In this document: positions 1,703 to 8,170 of the stretch, one piece after another
Numbering within the stretch: position 1 is the first letter of the stretch
Layout of the letters: each line of letters opens with the position of its first letter
NCBI GenBank assembly: GCA_041393775.1
Contig: JAWKJM010000005.1
Location: 2,529-66,528, forward strand
DNA from: Candidatus Nanopelagicales bacterium
GTDB lineage: Bacteria; Actinomycetota; Actinomycetes; S36-B12; UBA10799
DNA: 64,000 nt
Direction of reading: 5' to 3'
Notes under the pieces: model-generated
Seen by the model: only the letters and a program-made list of their open reading frames with translations
Database searches by the model: none
Told to the model about the DNA's origin: nothing
Position numbers and translations under genes: made by a program

Positions 1703-1850
1703 GGCATCCTTCCGCCGAGCTTTGGGCCCTTGCCCTCAGCCTAACCAGCGCCCCGACGGTCGCTGCTCGTCCTGACCGCCGTGAAGGTCAGGCGCCAATG
1801 AGGCGCTGAGCCCATCTGCGGTGGGGCAGTAGGGTGCCGCGATGGACGGC

Positions 1851-2114
1851 CTACTGGTCGCTGTCCATGGCGTCGTCGCTCATCATCGCGTCGGGTGACT
1901 CGCTCATGGCGTCGTCGCTCATCATCGCGTCGGGTGACTCGCTCATGGCGTCGTCGCTCATCATCGCGTCGGGTGACTCGCTCATGGCGTCGTCGCTCAT
2001 CATCGACGAGGGCGAGTCACTGGGCTCGGGCGACGGGTTGTTGCAGCCGGTCAGCCCGATCGTCGCCACCGCCAGACCTGCAACACCCACGTACAGTCGG
2101 TTCCTGGTTCTCAT
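1851..2114 (-). CDS. Small Met/Asp/Ser-rich repeat lipoprotein (87 aa)
   Basis: Internal start of ORF 1851..2156, preceded by a strong SD (AAGGAGACAGCA-ATG). The signal peptide has a lipobox, MRTRNRLYVGVAGLAVATIGLTG-C. The mature part is 3.6 copies of MSESPDAMMSDDA. Confidence 0.75.
   Translation of the reverse strand: MRTRNRLYVGVAGLAVATIGLTGCNNPSPEPSDSPSSMMSDDAMSESPDAMMSDDAMSESPDAMMSDDAMSESPDAMMSDDAMDSDQ
1866..2005. repeat. Perfect 39-bp tandem repeat (3.6 units) inside the lipoprotein gene
   Basis: The unit catggcgtcgtcgctcatcatcgcgtcgggtgactcgct was read at 1866-1904, 1905-1943 and 1944-1982. A partial fourth unit runs to 2005. The full units are identical. Confidence 0.95.
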
Positions 2115-2174
2115 TGCTGTCTCCTTCCGGTGCCTCTTGTTCGCAGCAGCCTGCACGAATGGATTGGTGGTCGG

Positions 2175-3842
2175 TCACCCGAAAGTGAACGAATATGCCT
2201 GCACGCCCGCCGGGACGCTCAGTGTCAATCGACTGCGACCGGCCGCGCCGTCCCTGACCGGGTAGAGCGTGGGGGCGCCGGAAACGTCGACGGCGCGAGT
2301 ACCTGCGCTGTCCCGCACGGTGACCGTGCCCTGCCCGCCGAGCACGGCGAAGACCTTGGCGGCGGAGTAGTTCAGACGCAGTTTCGAGTCGGATCCGACC
2401 GCTTCGATGTACTCGGGACGCTGCAGCCACCTGCCGGAAAGCGCTACCGAGTCGTTCGGCATCGAGGCGGGGAAGGCGTAGTCGGCAGCGTCCGGACCGG
2501 GCGTCTGATCGGCGTAACTGTTGCCCCGCTTCGCCCCCAAGTACGTCTCCGGAGTACCGGCCTGGTTGGGAGTCTCGCGGTCATCACCGGCTGCTGGAAG
2601 AGTGTCCTTGTTCTTCAACAACGTCCGGATGAGTTGCTCGGTCTGTTCGTACGCCCCCTCGCCGTAGTGAACCTGGCGCACCGTCCCGTTCTGATCGATG
2701 AGGTAGTGGGCCGGCCAGAAGCGCTGGTCATACGCGCGCCAGGTCTTGAACTCGTTGTCGATCGCGATCGGGTACTCGACGCCGAGGTCGGAGGCGGCCT
2801 GTGCCACGTTGGACACGTCGTGCTCGAACTCGAACTCGGGGGAATGCACCCCGATGATGGTCAGGCCGGCGTCCCGGTACTTCTCGTCCCACTTCTCGAG
2901 GTATGGCAGCGTGCGCTGGCAGTTGATGCACGAGTAGGTCCAGAAGTCCACCAGGACCACGCGTCCCCGCAGATCGGCAAGGGACAGCGGTTCGGAGTTC
3001 AGCCAGTCCGAGATGCCTCGCAACTCCGGTGCTGGGCCGCAGTTCTGCAACTGCGTCGGATCCGTCTCGCAGTCGTCGAACGAGACCCGGGGGGCGTCGA
3101 CGTCGGTTTGGAGCGAGGACAGGGCGCGCTGTGCCGAGTCGCCGGACTCGACCGCCGCCTGGACGCGCTGGGTGTAGCCGGGCACGATGCGTTGCAGCCC
3201 GTCCACAGCGCCCAGTGCTAGCACCACCGAGGTGGCGACCAGGATGCCACCGGTGATCCGGCGCAGCAAGGGAAGTCGTGTCCGCAAGGCCTTCGTGCGA
3301 GAGGTGAGCTGCTGTCCGGCCATCGCCAGCCCGAACAGTGGCACACAGACCCCGACCGTGAATGCGATGGTGAGCAGCAGCAGGCGCGCGCTCACCCCCT
3401 GCGTGGCCGAGAGCACCGTGATCGCGGCCAGGACGGGTCCGGCGCAGGGCACGAACGCCAGGCCGAACAGCGCGCCGAAGGCGAAGGCGGGTGTTCTGGG
3501 ATTGAGGGACCGCTGCGGGATCCGGGCGAACGGACGCTCCACGATGTGCCCGACGGCGGGGAAGACGAGCGCCAGCCCGACAACTGCCATCAGGACCAGG
3601 CTCGCGTTGCGCAGGAAGTCCGAAGGCAGTCCCAGCGCAGCGATCACGGCCGAGGCGAACAGGGTGAAGAAGGCGAACGACGTGCCCAGTCCGGCCACAA
3701 TGAGCAGCGGCCTGCGCCACGGGCGATCCTCGCGCTCCCCGATCGCCGAAGCCGAGAAGACCACCGGCAGGACGGGCAGGATGCACGGTGAGAGACCAGT
3801 CACCAGCCCTGCGAGGAACCCGATTCCGACAAGTAATAACAC
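2175..3842 (-). CDS. dipZ: DipZ-like thiol:disulfide interchange protein: CcdA/DsbD membrane domain fused to a thioredoxin-like domain and a C-terminal beta-rich domain
   Basis: 555-aa ORF. The N-terminus has the CcdA motif GLSPCILPVLPVVF and multiple TM segments. A redoxin domain carries CxxC (FWTYSCINCQRTLPY). GTG start at 3842. Confidence 0.85.
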   Translation of the reverse strand: MLLLVGIGFLAGLVTGLSPCILPVLPVVFSASAIGEREDRPWRRPLLIVAGLGTSFAFFTLFASAVIAALGLPSDFLRNASLVLMAVVGLALVFPAVGHIVERPFARIPQRSLNPRTPAFAFGALFGLAFVPCAGPVLAAITVLSATQGVSARLLLLTIAFTVGVCVPLFGLAMAGQQLTSRTKALRTRLPLLRRITGGILVATSVVLALGAVDGLQRIVPGYTQRVQAAVESGDSAQRALSSLQTDVDAPRVSFDDCETDPTQLQNCGPAPELRGISDWLNSEPLSLADLRGRVVLVDFWTYSCINCQRTLPYLEKWDEKYRDAGLTIIGVHSPEFEFEHDVSNVAQAASDLGVEYPIAIDNEFKTWRAYDQRFWPAHYLIDQNGTVRQVHYGEGAYEQTEQLIRTLLKNKDTLPAAGDDRETPNQAGTPETYLGAKRGNSYADQTPGPDAADYAFPASMPNDSVALSGRWLQRPEYIEAVGSDSKLRLNYSAAKVFAVLGGQGTVTVRDSAGTRAVDVSGAPTLYPVRDGAAGRSRLTLSVPAGVQAYSFTFG

Positions 3843-4318
3843 GCCCTTGATTCGTGCGAGGAGCGCGAACGGATTGGTCGATCACGCGCGCATGCGTACG
3901 GCCACCACTCGGTCGGCCGTCGCAGCCCTGTCGCTGCAGGAATGCGCGCCGCAGTGCGCATCGTCATTCCGAGGCTGAGCACGAGCACCACCGATCGCCC
4001 TAAGTAGGCTGCGGGCGGTCCCGATGCGAGCACGGCCCCGATCAGCGGCCCGGCCGAGCTGAGGAAGCCGAAGACACCCAGCCCTGCGAACACCACGTCG
4101 TCCACCCAGTTCTGCAGGCGTCGGCCGTCCGGTCCGCTGTATCGATCCACGCCGACCACGAGGTTGCCGGAACGGGTCTGCAGCGCGATGTCCTCCGCCA
4201 GCTGGGGCAGGTTACGGATCGAGGGCATCGACCGGGTGAACTCCCGCTTCAGCGCCGCACGATCCGGGCAAGCTGGCCACTCGGCCTGCCGGTGCGCTTT
4301 CGGGTTGCGGCGTCGCAT
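3800..4318 (-). CDS. Hypothetical protein with a hydrophobic central segment; C-terminal third looks non-native and overlaps the dipZ start
   Basis: Only plausible ORF in the 3843-4340 gap. It has a TM-like stretch VVFAGLGVFGFLSSAGPLIGAVLA. No recognisable family. Confidence 0.35.
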   Translation of the reverse strand: MRRRNPKAHRQAEWPACPDRAALKREFTRSMPSIRNLPQLAEDIALQTRSGNLVVGVDRYSGPDGRRLQNWVDDVVFAGLGVFGFLSSAGPLIGAVLASGPPAAYLGRSVVLVLSLGMTMRTAARIPAATGLRRPTEWWPYACARDRPIRSRSSHESRACYYLSESGSSQGW

Positions 4319-4341: not shown

Positions 4342-4544
4342 TCTGGTCCGAAAACGGCTCGTGTACTCGGTCGCCGGCGCTGGTCGCGAGGTTAGAGAAT
4401 GGTCGCGAGGTTAGAGATCGTGCACGAGGTTAGTGAACGCACGTGTGGCTTCTCTAACCTCGTGCACGATCTCTAACGCGAGCGGTATCCGCCCGGCATT
4501 TGCCCGCCTGAACGGGCGGCCGACCACGGCCGCGGATGACTAAC
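4342..4544 (+). repeat. Family-1 modular hairpin repeat, locus R1 (modules A, B, C)
   Basis: Reads GTCCGAAAACGGCTCGTGTACTCGG..CGCGAGGTTAGAGAA (x2). A hairpin follows: 28-nt arms at 4410-4437 and 4450-4477 with 27/28 complementarity, and a loop CGCACGTGTGGC. Module C follows, ending GATGACTAAC. Confidence 0.9.
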
Positions 4545-7860: not shown

Positions 7861-8170
7861 CGCAGGAGCTGGCCGCGAGGTCAGAGAAAGTGCACGAGGT
7901 GTTCGTTCTCTAGTCCGAAAATGGCTGGTGTACTCGGTCGCCGCAGAAGTGGGCCGCGAGGTTAGAGAATGGTCGCGAGGTTAGAGATCGTGCACGAGGT
8001 TAGTGAACGCACGTGTGGTTTCTCTAACCTCGTGCACGTTCTCTAACCCGAGCGGTTTGCGCCCGGCATTTCCCCGCCTGAACGCGGCGGCCGGCCACGG
8101 CCATGCACCACCAACGCGAGCGATCTCCGCCCGTCTGAACGCCGCGGCTGACCACAGCCGCGGAGGCTAC
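7861..8170 (+). repeat. Family-1 repeat, locus R2 (a degenerate A-B unit lacking the hairpin tip, a full A-B unit, and two C modules)
   Basis: 7861-7912 reads GGCCGCGAGGTCAGAGAAAGTGCACGAGGTGTTCGTTCTCTA, that is, the arms without the loop. A full copy follows, with hairpin GTGCACGAGGTTAGTGAACGCACGTGTGGTTTCTCTAACCTCGTGCAC, then two C modules. Confidence 0.9.

What the first reader, a model, noticed from the sequence alone, without database searches (positions are those of the whole stretch)
1851..3842. Met-rich, repeat-expanded lipoprotein immediately downstream of dipZ
60 bp downstream of the DipZ-like reductant-transfer protein lies an 87-aa lipoprotein gene with a strong SD and a lipobox (LTG-C).

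The mature part is essentially (MSESPDAMMSDDA)n. Roughly one residue in five is Met. It is rich in Asp and Ser, has no aromatic or basic residues after the signal peptide, and is therefore probably disordered. Met-rich and Met/Asp-rich motifs are classic Cu(I)-binding features in periplasmic copper proteins such as PcoE/SilE and CopA-type multicopper oxidase inserts.

The coding repeat is a perfect 39-bp (13-codon) tandem array of 3.6 units. That implies recent expansion and likely copy-number variation between strains.

The pairing with a thiol-disulfide module suggests an envelope metal or oxidative-stress function that, as far as I know, is not described for DipZ loci.
Basis: partly seen in the sequence, partly recalled or inferred. 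Interest (0 to 1): 0.6.

Follow-up and report, generated by a model that had tools for sequence, protein, structure and literature searches.

The report
Methionine-rich lipoprotein partnered with DipZ
The small methionine-rich lipoprotein next to dipZ is a real gene from an unnamed family that almost always sits beside DipZ and has its own SigK-type promoter, so it probably acts as a copper-binding or oxidant-quenching shield and gives a first testable clue to what the SigK stress regulon senses.

Summary
On the minus strand there is an 87-aa lipoprotein gene (1851-2114) 60 nt after dipZ (2175-3842). Its mature part is 19% Met and built on a perfect 39-bp x 3.6 repeat.

New here:
- It belongs to an unnamed family of at least 80 small actinobacterial lipoproteins with the core motif S-D-A-M-M-S/E-E/D. 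No Pfam or NCBIfam model covers it.
- In 10 of 11 unbiased look-ups a family member lies beside a CcdA-thioredoxin (DipZ-type) gene, usually with an ECF sigma/RskA anti-sigma pair. Carriers include Corynebacterium and Actinomyces.
- dipZ and the lipoprotein gene each carry their own CCAATCC-N16-17-CGAA promoter. The same motif precedes sigK itself and MPT70-like genes elsewhere. The gene is therefore a SigK-regulon member.
- This genome's DipZ groups with other lipoprotein-linked DipZs, not with those of its congeners.

The function is inferred. Cu(I) buffering is most likely. Supporting it, 15 of 83 relatives carry MM(E/D)H repeats and this genome's own PCuAC copper chaperone has a similar Met-acidic tail. 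An MrpX-like oxidant sink is the main rival. No expression or binding data could be obtained.

The scan's first-stage readers noted the same module in another genome (e1-4683421).

The parts
3850..3877 (-). SigK-type promoter of dipZ. The -35 element CCAATCC is at 3871-3877, followed by a 16-nt spacer and the -10 element CGAAT at 3850-3854. The GTG start at 3842 lies 7 nt after the -10, so the mRNA is probably leaderless.
   Evidence: The pattern search finds 2 hits in the 64-kb window against 0.14 expected. The same motif sits at the same distance before the dipZ start in 15 of 17 other loci; in L009 and L040 it is not evident in the 250 nt shown.
2175..3842 (-). dipZ: a fusion of a CcdA-type membrane electron transporter, a TlpA/ResA-like thioredoxin domain (active site C-I-N-C) and the DipZ C-terminal domain.
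   Evidence: Pfam hits: DsbD_TM 6.4e-10, AhpC-TSA 4.9e-15, Redoxin 2.9e-14, Thioredoxin_10 6.5e-27. Translation.
2139..2167 (-). Second, separate SigK-type promoter inside the 60-nt spacer. The -35 element CCAATCC is at 2161-2167, followed by a 17-nt spacer and the -10 element CGAAC at 2139-2143. It drives the lipoprotein gene and excludes the upstream GTG at 2156 as the start.
   Evidence: The same motif precedes the lipoprotein gene in all 9 other loci listed and in L121; L119 has a CGTAG -10 variant and L122 has no motif.
2120..2128 (-). Shine-Dalgarno sequence GGAAGGAGA, with its AGGAG core 6 nt before the ATG.
   Evidence: Read directly from the sequence.
1851..2114 (-). Lipoprotein gene, 87 aa plus stop. 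The signal peptide is residues 1-23 (2046-2114). The lipid-anchor Cys24 codon is at 2043-2045. The mature 63-aa Met/Asp/Ser peptide is encoded at 1854-2042.
   Evidence: Family of 83 relatives.
1866..2005 (-). Perfect 39-bp (13-codon) tandem repeat, 3.6 copies, encoding (SESPDAMMSDDAM)n.
   Evidence: TRF score 280, 100% matches. Exact unit positions.
1771..1792 (-). GC-rich hairpin (CCTGACC-N8-GGTCAGG) about 60 nt after the stop codon. It may be a terminator without a U-tract, lying before the next gene, an AMP-binding ligase that starts at 1702.
   Evidence: fold and coordinates. The consensus terminator scan found nothing, so this is weak.

Best explanation
The 87-aa ORF is a genuine, lipid-anchored and intrinsically disordered peptide. 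It belongs to an unnamed actinobacterial family whose mature part is little more than repeats of S-D-A-M-M-S/E-E/D.

It is made as part of the SigK/RskA envelope regulon. SigK-RNA polymerase starts transcription at one promoter in front of dipZ (a leaderless mRNA) and at a second promoter in the dipZ-lipoprotein spacer. After export and lipidation at Cys24, the peptide stays tethered on the outer face of the membrane beside DipZ, which carries reducing power out to envelope thiols.

Most likely mechanism (inferred, not shown): the array of thioethers, flanked by carboxylates (and by His in a subfamily), binds Cu(I), and possibly Ag(I), transiently. In this way it buffers soft metal ions at the membrane surface. 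That would keep them off the reduced CxxC thiols maintained by DipZ and the co-regulated thioredoxin lipoprotein, or it would hand the metal on to copper-handling proteins.

Repeat number changes easily by slippage. This tunes capacity and explains the perfect 39-bp array.
For: Shown:
- Gene anatomy and composition.
- A family of 83 small proteins. 73 of the first 74 have a lipobox. The mature parts have no Cys and almost no aromatic or basic residues.
- Conserved motif around 197 Met-Met doublets: D/E at -2 in 80%, A at -1 in 80%, E/D/H at +3 in 87%.
- 10 of 11 unbiased context look-ups lie next to a CcdA-thioredoxin gene, and 7 of those also have an ECF sigma plus RskA pair.
- Each gene has its own CCAATCC-N16-17-CGAA promoter.
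- The same motif lies before this genome's sigK-rskA and before MPT70-like fasciclin genes downstream of dipZ in other genomes. The mpt70 promoter is the published SigK-dependent promoter (PMC7509140).
- The genome's sigma factor reaches the NCBIfam SigK cut-off, 226.1 against 226 bits. Its neighbour has an RskA_C domain.
- This genome's DipZ sits in a clade (SH-aLRT 98) with DipZs that carry a Met-rich downstream gene.

For Cu(I) specifically:
- 15 of 83 relatives have MM(E/D)H repeats, and 7 contain M-D-H.
- The same genome's PCuAC copper chaperone, in a CopD/CtaG-Sco-PCuAC-DyP cluster, ends in a Met/Asp/Ser tail of the same make-up.
- PCuAC tails and the CueO Met-rich domain are described as transient Cu(I)-recruiting elements (PMC12860648, PMC11494321).
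- One relative is fused to a partial CopC domain, 26.1 bits against a cut-off of 23.3.
- DsbD-type pathways are needed under copper stress (PMC10907172).
- In disordered regions, Met oxidation sensitivity tracks positive local charge (PMC12860648). Here the context is purely acidic.
Against: - There are no expression, metal-binding or phenotype data.
- The canonical Cu(I) Met spacings are missing. Among 541 Met-Met intervals, MxM occurs once and MxxM never. The intervals are 1, then mostly 4-7.
- This member and most relatives have no His.
- None of the neighbourhoods I looked at contains a copper exporter, a multicopper oxidase or a CsoR/CopRS regulator.
- A profile of the mature region found only small stand-alone proteins in 1.84 billion representatives, so there is no strong fusion to a copper domain.
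- The SigK signal is unknown, and the authors of PMC7509140 found no in vitro inducer of mpt70p.
- The promoter motif was derived here. The paper with the published SigK consensus (Veyrier 2008) is not held.
Confidence: 0.45

Rival explanations
1. Sacrificial oxidant sink, a Gram-positive analogue of MrpX/BcrX. The exposed methionines quench hypochlorite, chloramines or peroxide at the membrane surface and become Met sulfoxide. This spares the thiols that DipZ keeps reduced. The peptide is then either discarded or re-reduced by an exported Mo-type Met sulfoxide reductase.
For: - The architecture is strikingly parallel. In Azospira and Brucella a reductase system, an exported peptide of about 20% Met plus charged residues, an ECF sigma and an anti-sigma are clustered, with ECF promoters in front of each unit (PMC4436054, PMC8315932).
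- Here the order is dipZ, Met-rich lipoprotein, sigK, rskA in 7 loci.
- The mature peptide is 19% Met and 29% charged.
- After the Met-Met doublet, the commonest Met-Met interval is 5, as in the MxKDx pentapeptide.
- 4 of 70 members give weak hits to TIGR02953.
- SigK is itself redox-sensitive (PMC7509140).
- The genome encodes an exported MsrP-like Mo enzyme with a cytochrome-b partner.
- Both roles could coexist, as proposed for the PcuC tail (PMC12860648).
Against: - No family member reaches the TIGR02953 cut-off, and P0001 gives no hit.
- No Msr gene is adjacent in any locus.
- MsrA and MsrB in this genome lack export signals, so DipZ has no thiol-dependent Msr to feed.
- The MsrP-like gene has no SigK motif.
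- Position +3 exchanges E, D and H, which are all metal ligands, and the context is purely acidic. Both fit cation binding better.
Confidence: 0.27
2. Accessory sensor or modulator of the SigK-RskA switch. The tethered peptide interacts with the extracytoplasmic RskA_C domain (or with DipZ). Its metal-bound or oxidised state then sets how much SigK is released, giving the system its input or a negative feedback.
For: - In Corynebacterium the gene is the first cistron of a lipoprotein-sigK-rskA operon, with only 3 nt between its stop and the sigK start.
- It sits between dipZ and sigK in 5 further loci (L031, L032, L034, L125, L126).
- The activating signal of SigK is still unknown (PMC7509140).
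Against: - In this genome sigK-rskA lies on another contig (C4) and works without an adjacent lipoprotein.
- Five congeners have dipZ-sigK-rskA with no such gene.
- Mycobacterial SigK systems lack it.
- A low-complexity peptide with variable repeat number is an unlikely specific ligand.
Confidence: 0.1
3. No function of its own. It would be a leftover N-terminal tether of a larger SigK-regulon lipoprotein (thioredoxin- or fasciclin-type) whose domain was lost, or simply an acidic spacer or cell-surface filler.
For: - The same slot downstream of dipZ holds a lipoprotein with a Met-repeat tether plus a thioredoxin domain in L037 and L099, and a fasciclin lipoprotein in L008 and L009.
- This genome's SigK-driven thioredoxin lipoprotein has an EPAMTEES tether.
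- An earlier scan note reports a Met-rich repeat on a fasciclin lipoprotein (e1-4169764, unchecked).
Against: - At least 80 stand-alone members of 52-114 aa occur across several orders. They keep the signal peptide, the lipobox, their own promoter and the D-A-M-M-x-E/D motif while the repeat DNA differs.
- Met is invariant where its neighbours vary.
- That pattern is purifying selection on the Met array, not decay.
Confidence: 0.08

Closest known systems
MrpX / BcrX (pentapeptide MXKDX repeat protein, TIGR02953) with MsrPQ and an ECF sigma/anti-sigma pair (PMC4436054, PMC8315932)
   Same: Both are small exported peptides with about 20% Met, the rest mostly charged. Both are encoded between a reductase system and an ECF sigma/anti-sigma pair, with ECF-type promoters in front. 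A Met-Met interval of 5 is frequent in both.
   Different: - Lipid-anchored rather than soluble.
- Acidic only, with no Lys.
- Met-Met doublets in a D-A-M-M-S-E motif.
- The partner is DipZ (a thiol reductant exporter), not MsrPQ.
- The sigma factor is SigK-type, not ECF16 SigF/BcrS.
- Below the HMM cut-off.
- Found in Actinomycetota, not Proteobacteria.
Met-rich copper-recruiting segments: the PCuAC/PcuC C-terminal extension, the CueO Met-rich domain, SilE/PcoE (PMC12860648, PMC11494321)
   Same: Both are disordered, Met-dense, extracytoplasmic segments thought to bind Cu(I) transiently through thioethers. This genome's own PCuAC tail has nearly the same Met/Asp/Ser make-up. A subfamily carries MM(E/D)H and M-D-H.
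   Different: - A stand-alone lipoprotein, not a tail of a folded copper protein.
- Lacks MxM, MxxM, HxxM and MxxH spacings.
- Most members have no His.
- Not in a copper operon.
- No Pfam match.
SigK regulon of Mycobacterium tuberculosis (mpt83-dipZ-mpt70, sigK-rskA; PMC7509140, PMC3078919)
   Same: The same regulator pair and the same core gene, dipZ. The same promoter type lies in front of dipZ and in front of the gene downstream of it. A lipoprotein sits beside dipZ.
   Different: The slot next to dipZ holds a Met-repeat peptide instead of fasciclin-domain proteins (MPT70/MPT83). In this genome sigK-rskA is unlinked from dipZ.
Scs (suppressor of copper sensitivity) system: ScsA plus the DsbD-like ScsB, ScsC and ScsD (PMC10907172)
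   Same: Both are envelope stress-induced modules that pair a DsbD-family reductant exporter with a small accessory protein having a lipobox-like signal. Both link copper and oxidant stress.
   Different: - ScsA is not Met-rich and has a CxxC and a peroxidase-like signature.
- Regulation is by CpxRA, not an ECF sigma.
- Found in Proteobacteria.
- No sequence relationship.

Membership tests
Bacterial lipoprotein (Lgt/LspA substrate) | Positively charged n-region, hydrophobic h-region, and a lipobox [LVI][ASTVI][GAS]C within about 35 residues | tested here: met
   Arg at residues 3 and 5, a hydrophobic core, and L-T-G-C at 21-24. 73 of the first 74 relatives have a lipobox.
Bacterial lipoprotein (Lgt/LspA substrate) | Actual cleavage and lipidation at Cys24 | not testable with these tools
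   Needs mass spectrometry, globomycin treatment or Triton X-114 fractionation.
DipZ (neighbouring gene) | A single polypeptide with CcdA/DsbD_TM, a thioredoxin-like CxxC domain and Thioredoxin_10 | tested here: met
   All three Pfam domains score above their cut-offs. The translation shows the membrane Cys residues (SPC, VPC) and C-I-N-C.
SigK/RskA (ECF18-19) regulon | The genome encodes SigK and an RskA-type anti-sigma factor | tested here: met
   At C4:329678-331089, NF007228 SigK scores 226.1 bits against a cut-off of 226. RskA_C 1.9e-21 and zf-HC2 are also found.
SigK/RskA (ECF18-19) regulon | A promoter of the type found before sigK itself and before mpt70-like genes | tested here: met
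   CCAATCC-N17-CGAAC at 2139-2167. The same motif lies before sigK and before fasciclin genes downstream of dipZ in L067 and L068. The published consensus could not be read because the paper is not held.
SigK/RskA (ECF18-19) regulon | SigK-dependent transcription | not testable with these tools
Needs reporter or RNA-seq work in sigK/rskA mutants.
MrpX/BcrX (TIGR02953, MXKDX repeat) | A score above the family HMM cut-off (41 bits) | tested here: not met
   P0001 gives no hit. 4 of 70 relatives give weak hits; the one whose score was shown (P0043) reached 18.5 bits against the 41-bit cut-off.
MrpX/BcrX (TIGR02953, MXKDX repeat) | Adjacent MsrPQ (YedYZ) Met sulfoxide reductase | tested here: not met
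   The only MsrP-like gene is on contig C7 and has no SigK motif. None of the context loci has an Msr gene next to the lipoprotein.
MrpX/BcrX (TIGR02953, MXKDX repeat) | A small exported peptide of about 20% Met with the rest mostly charged, under ECF sigma control | tested here: met
   19% Met and 29% Asp+Glu, plus an ECF-type promoter. The resemblance is functional only.
Copper-binding Met motifs (Mets motifs MxM/MxxM; SilE/PcoE HxxM/MxxH) | Canonical Met or His spacing | tested here: not met
   Of 541 Met-Met intervals in the family, an interval of 2 occurs once and an interval of 3 never. P0001 has no His. No Pfam hit.
Copper-binding Met motifs (Mets motifs MxM/MxxM; SilE/PcoE HxxM/MxxH) | Met combined with His or carboxylate ligands in repeats | tested here: inconclusive
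   MM(E/D)H occurs in 15 of 83 relatives and M-D-H in 7. E, D or H fills position +3 in 87% of repeats.
Copper-binding Met motifs (Mets motifs MxM/MxxM; SilE/PcoE HxxM/MxxH) | Measured Cu(I)/Ag(I) binding | not testable with these tools
   Needs the recombinant or synthetic mature peptide.

The most novel reading that the evidence does not exclude
The Met-rich lipoprotein is the missing extracytoplasmic input, or feedback buffer, of the SigK-RskA switch. It would act as a membrane-tethered thioether antenna. Its Cu(I)-loaded or oxidised state would be read by the RskA C-terminal domain or by DipZ, which would explain what this widespread but signal-less ECF system senses.
Probability: 0.1. Interest if true: 0.8.

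Novelty: new variant of a known kind. Interest (0 to 1): 0.6.

Why it matters
The SigK/RskA regulon controls dipZ and the MPT70/MPT83 antigens in mycobacteria. It has been studied for about twenty years, yet its inducing signal and purpose are still unknown (PMC7509140).

In other actinobacteria, the slot next to dipZ is filled by a peptide that is essentially a string of methionines. That narrows the likely stress to things thioethers deal with: Cu(I)/Ag(I), or hypochlorite-type oxidants. It also turns the question into simple experiments in cultivable, non-mycobacterial carriers.

The work also defines a new, unannotated lipoprotein family (no Pfam or NCBIfam model). It gives a compact promoter signature that predicts SigK regulons from sequence. 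And it offers a natural example of repeat-number tuning in a functional disordered peptide.

Tried and rejected
Steps that gave nothing or could not be done:
There is therefore no check of transcription or of repeat copy number in reads.
- Veyrier et al. 2008, which holds the published SigK consensus, is not held. I calibrated the motif by its position before sigK and before MPT70-like genes instead.
- The single-protein scan of genome contigs returned only 15 loci.
- An even, class-wide sample of 57 full-length DipZ loci contained no small Met-rich lipoprotein on either strand. The family is therefore patchy, not a general DipZ companion.
- A family profile run against 41 relatives was swamped by signal-peptide matches. 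Only this genome's gene scored high (66 bits). The next hits were the Met-tether thioredoxin lipoproteins.
- A profile of the mature region against 1.84 billion representatives found only 14 small proteins and no informative domain fusion.
- NCBIfam and Pfam have no model for the family.
- AlphaFold gave no fold, so no fold search was run.

Ideas rejected:
- That DipZ feeds an exported MsrA or MsrB. Both lack export signals.
- That the plus-strand ORF 1834-2265 is the gene. It is not conserved.
- That the start is the GTG at 2156. It lies upstream of the promoter's -10 element.
- That the cassette is a recent foreign insertion by composition. Its GC is 66.2% against 66.8% for the genome.
Full report
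**1. The observation**

All features lie on the minus strand. The gene at 2175-3842 encodes a 555-aa protein with DsbD_TM, AhpC-TSA/Redoxin and Thioredoxin_10 domains, which is the DipZ architecture.

Sixty nucleotides downstream, after a GGAAGGAGA ribosome-binding site, an ATG at 2114 opens an 87-codon frame that ends at 1851. Its N-terminus is a textbook lipoprotein signal, with Arg3, Arg5, a hydrophobic core and L-T-G-C at 21-24.

The 63 mature residues use only eight amino acids: S16, D14, M12, P7, A7, E4, N2, Q1. Tandem Repeats Finder reports a 39-bp unit x 3.6 at 1866-2005 with 100% identity.

This frame is the most Met-dense in the whole 3.2-Mb assembly. It is a far outlier among 131 predicted lipoproteins. 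AlphaFold2 with a 70-sequence alignment predicts no structure, with pLDDT 55 and pTM 0.12.

**2. It is a member of a real, unnamed family**

A word-seeded search found five relatives. A profile of ten members found 74. A full HMMER pass over 1.84 billion representatives with the mature region alone added nine more, all of 61-114 aa.

- 73 of the first 74 have a lipobox.
- The pooled mature composition is S 21.5, M 16.5, D 12.6, A 11.9, E 10.2, P 9.6 and T 7.0%.
- There is no Cys, 0.7% His, and almost no aromatic, aliphatic or basic residues.

Around 197 Met-Met doublets the consensus is P-S-S-D-A-M-M-S-E-S. Ala fills -1 in 80%, Asp/Glu fills -2 in 80%, and Glu/Asp/His fills +3 in 87%. The Met columns are the only near-invariant ones besides the lipobox.

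Repeat length and DNA differ between lineages, and close relatives differ by whole units: 85 against 69 aa, 91 against 80, and 92 against 80. The Met array is therefore under selection while copy number drifts.

No Pfam or NCBIfam model matches. Named sources include Corynebacterium pseudogenitalium, C. amycolatum, C. aquatimens and Actinomyces sp. ZJ751.

**3. The linkage with DipZ is conserved**

I looked up eleven relatives that had been found by sequence alone.

- Ten lie directly beside a CcdA-thioredoxin fusion gene.
- Eight of those fusions have the DipZ C-terminal domain, and two are shorter.
- Seven loci also carry an ECF sigma and an RskA_C anti-sigma gene.
- The single exception is an atypical 140-aa protein in which the repeat precedes a partial CopC domain.

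The usual order is dipZ, lipoprotein, sigma, anti-sigma. In Corynebacterium the lipoprotein gene is divergent from dipZ and heads a lipoprotein-sigma-anti-sigma operon. In Actinomyces it is also divergent from dipZ, but there sigma and anti-sigma lie downstream of dipZ on the other strand.

DipZ-anchored searches gave further cases (L036, L038, L039, L007). They also showed what else occupies the slot:

- nothing, in five congeners;
- a fasciclin lipoprotein, in L008 and L009;
- a lipoprotein with a Met-repeat tether fused to a thioredoxin domain and followed by CcdA, in L037 and L099.

The family is patchy. None was found in 57 DipZ loci sampled evenly across the class, nor in 12 other genomes of the same genus.

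**4. Both genes have their own SigK-type promoter**

I aligned the 250 nt around the dipZ start codon in 18 loci. This exposed CC(A/C)ATC(C/T)-N16-17-CGAA(T/C/G) ending 7-10 nt before the start codon.

- In the window the dipZ copy is at 3850-3877, 7 nt before the GTG at 3842. This implies a leaderless dipZ mRNA.
- A second copy lies at 2139-2167, inside the 60-nt spacer and just after the dipZ stop.
- These are the only two matches in 64 kb, against 0.14 expected.
- The motif precedes the lipoprotein gene in all 9 other loci listed and in L121. Corynebacterium uses a CGTAG variant of the -10 in two back-to-back promoters, and L122 has no motif.

Across the whole genome there are 24 matches, of which five sit in promoter position:

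- dipZ;
- the lipoprotein gene;
- the genome's own ECF sigma gene at C4:329678;
- a lipoprotein with an EPAMTEES-repeat tether and a thioredoxin domain, followed by CcdA, at C3:437536-438848;
- an 85-aa secreted Cys-containing protein at C3:149827.

The sigma factor reaches the NCBIfam SigK cut-off, and its neighbour has RskA_C and zf-HC2 domains.

As an external calibration, two large actinobacterial genomes carry the same motif between dipZ and an MPT70-like fasciclin gene. They are probably mycobacteria, judged from the MPT70-like sequence, not from a name. That is where the published SigK-dependent mpt70 promoter lies. [quoted passage not shown] I could not read the published consensus itself.

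**5. History of the cassette**

In this genome an L,D-transpeptidase gene is followed directly by sigK-rskA. In five congeners, dipZ sits between the homologous upstream gene and sigK. That upstream gene was matched only by its C-terminal protein sequence.

On a DipZ tree, this genome's protein does not fall inside the congeners' clade. It falls in the sister clade (SH-aLRT 98), which is made of four lipoprotein-linked and two Met-tether-thioredoxin-linked DipZs. The lipoprotein label is clustered on the tree: 7 changes against 11.7 when shuffled.

DipZ and its Met-rich partner therefore tend to travel together. This genome carries a different DipZ lineage from its congeners, at a different place. 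Base composition gives no sign of recent import.

**6. What it does**

The following is shown: a tethered, disordered poly-Met and acidic peptide is co-regulated with two reductant-export modules.

The rest is inferred. Two known chemistries fit a Cys-free thioether array.

*Cu(I) buffering or recruitment*
- A subfamily (15 of 83) has MM(E/D)H repeats, and seven members contain M-D-H.
- Position +3 exchanges only metal-ligand residues.
- In this same genome the PCuAC chaperone of a CopD/CtaG-Sco-PCuAC-DyP cluster ends in a Met/Asp/Ser tail of the same make-up. The multicopper oxidase has M-D-H-G-M-G-M.
- Such tails and the CueO Met-rich domain are described as transient Cu(I) recruiters (PMC12860648, PMC11494321).
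- DsbD-type pathways are needed under copper stress (PMC10907172).
- A lead only: in M. tuberculosis SigK activates sigC (PMC4821874), and SigC counters copper starvation (PMC7924339).

*Sacrificial oxidant sink*
- MrpX and BcrX are exported peptides of about 20% Met. They are encoded next to a Met sulfoxide reductase and an ECF sigma/anti-sigma pair, and HOCl induces them (PMC4436054, PMC8315932).
- The gene order here is a close formal parallel, and the commonest non-adjacent Met spacing is 5.
- Against this reading: there is no adjacent or SigK-driven Msr, MsrA and MsrB are cytoplasmic, HMM scores are below threshold, and the context is purely acidic.

I rank Cu(I) binding first (0.45) and the oxidant sink second (0.27). 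Both could operate. A sensor or modulator role for RskA gets 0.10 and a functionless tether remnant 0.08.

**7. Comparison with what is known, and novelty**

This is not a member of the MrpX family, because the HMM and partner tests failed. It is not a member of SilE/PcoE or of the Mets-motif class, because the spacing test failed. It works like one or both of them.

It is a new family, and a new member type of the SigK regulon. The regulon's literature, as far as it could be searched, names fasciclin proteins, DipZ and Mpt53, but no Met-rich peptide (PMC7509140, PMC3078919).

First-stage notes of this scan recorded the same module in another genome (e1-4683421) and a Met-rich repeat on a fasciclin lipoprotein (e1-4169764). 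These are unchecked notes, not independent evidence.

**8. Verdict**

- Observation confirmed.
- Interpretation partly supported and considerably extended.
- Novelty: new variant of a known kind.
- Interest 0.6. The finding gives the long-standing question of what the SigK regulon responds to a concrete, cheap test.

Noticed in passing
window 3840-3877 (minus): dipZ appears to be leaderless. The -10 element of the SigK-type promoter ends 7 nt before the GTG at 3842, and the same geometry holds in relatives.
   Followed up: partly
G000 C4:328590-331089 (L116): This genome has an L,D-transpeptidase gene followed directly by sigK-rskA, with a SigK-type motif before sigK. Five congeners have dipZ between the homologous upstream gene and sigK. 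dipZ has therefore been lost from, or moved out of, its usual place here.
   Followed up: partly
G000 C3:437536-438848 (L114): A second SigK-motif operon. It encodes a 175-aa lipoprotein whose tether carries EPAMTEES repeats ahead of a thioredoxin domain (WCPDC), followed by a 242-aa CcdA. Orthologues are present in the congeners, and the same architecture sits downstream of dipZ in L037 and L099.
   Followed up: partly
G000 C3:149827-150130 (L117): An 85-aa secreted, Lys-rich protein with four Cys and no Pfam match has a perfect SigK-type motif (CCAATCC-N16-CGAAT) upstream. It is a candidate further regulon member.
   Followed up: no
G000 C3:754159-758737 (L115:2160-6738): A CopD/CtaG fusion, Sco, PCuAC and DyP peroxidase cluster. 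The PCuAC ends in a 27-residue Met/Asp/Ser tail resembling the lipoprotein repeat. A multicopper oxidase near C3:285179 has an M-D-H-G-M-G-M segment.
   Followed up: partly
L119:5843-6003 (Corynebacterium pseudogenitalium): Two back-to-back divergent promoters share a palindromic GGATTGGTCCAATCC core and use CGTAG instead of CGAA as the -10 element. This may be a lineage-specific SigK -10 variant.
   Followed up: no
window 4381-4437 and 7957-8000: 19-bp tandem units containing GGTTAGAGA (TRF) flank the block of secreted-protein and two-component-system genes just upstream of the dipZ cassette.
   Followed up: no
window 1834-2265 (plus): A 143-aa shadow ORF with high GC3 lies antisense to the lipoprotein gene. 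It would be easy to miscall, and it is not conserved in relatives.
   Followed up: yes
L122:6001-7489, L124:5001-6643: In a His-bearing subfamily (AMM-D/E-H-S repeats), and in L122, the partner is a shorter CcdA-thioredoxin fusion without the DipZ C-terminal domain. No sigK-rskA is nearby; in L122 a TetR gene lies immediately upstream, and in L124 one lies about 1 kb downstream.
   Followed up: no
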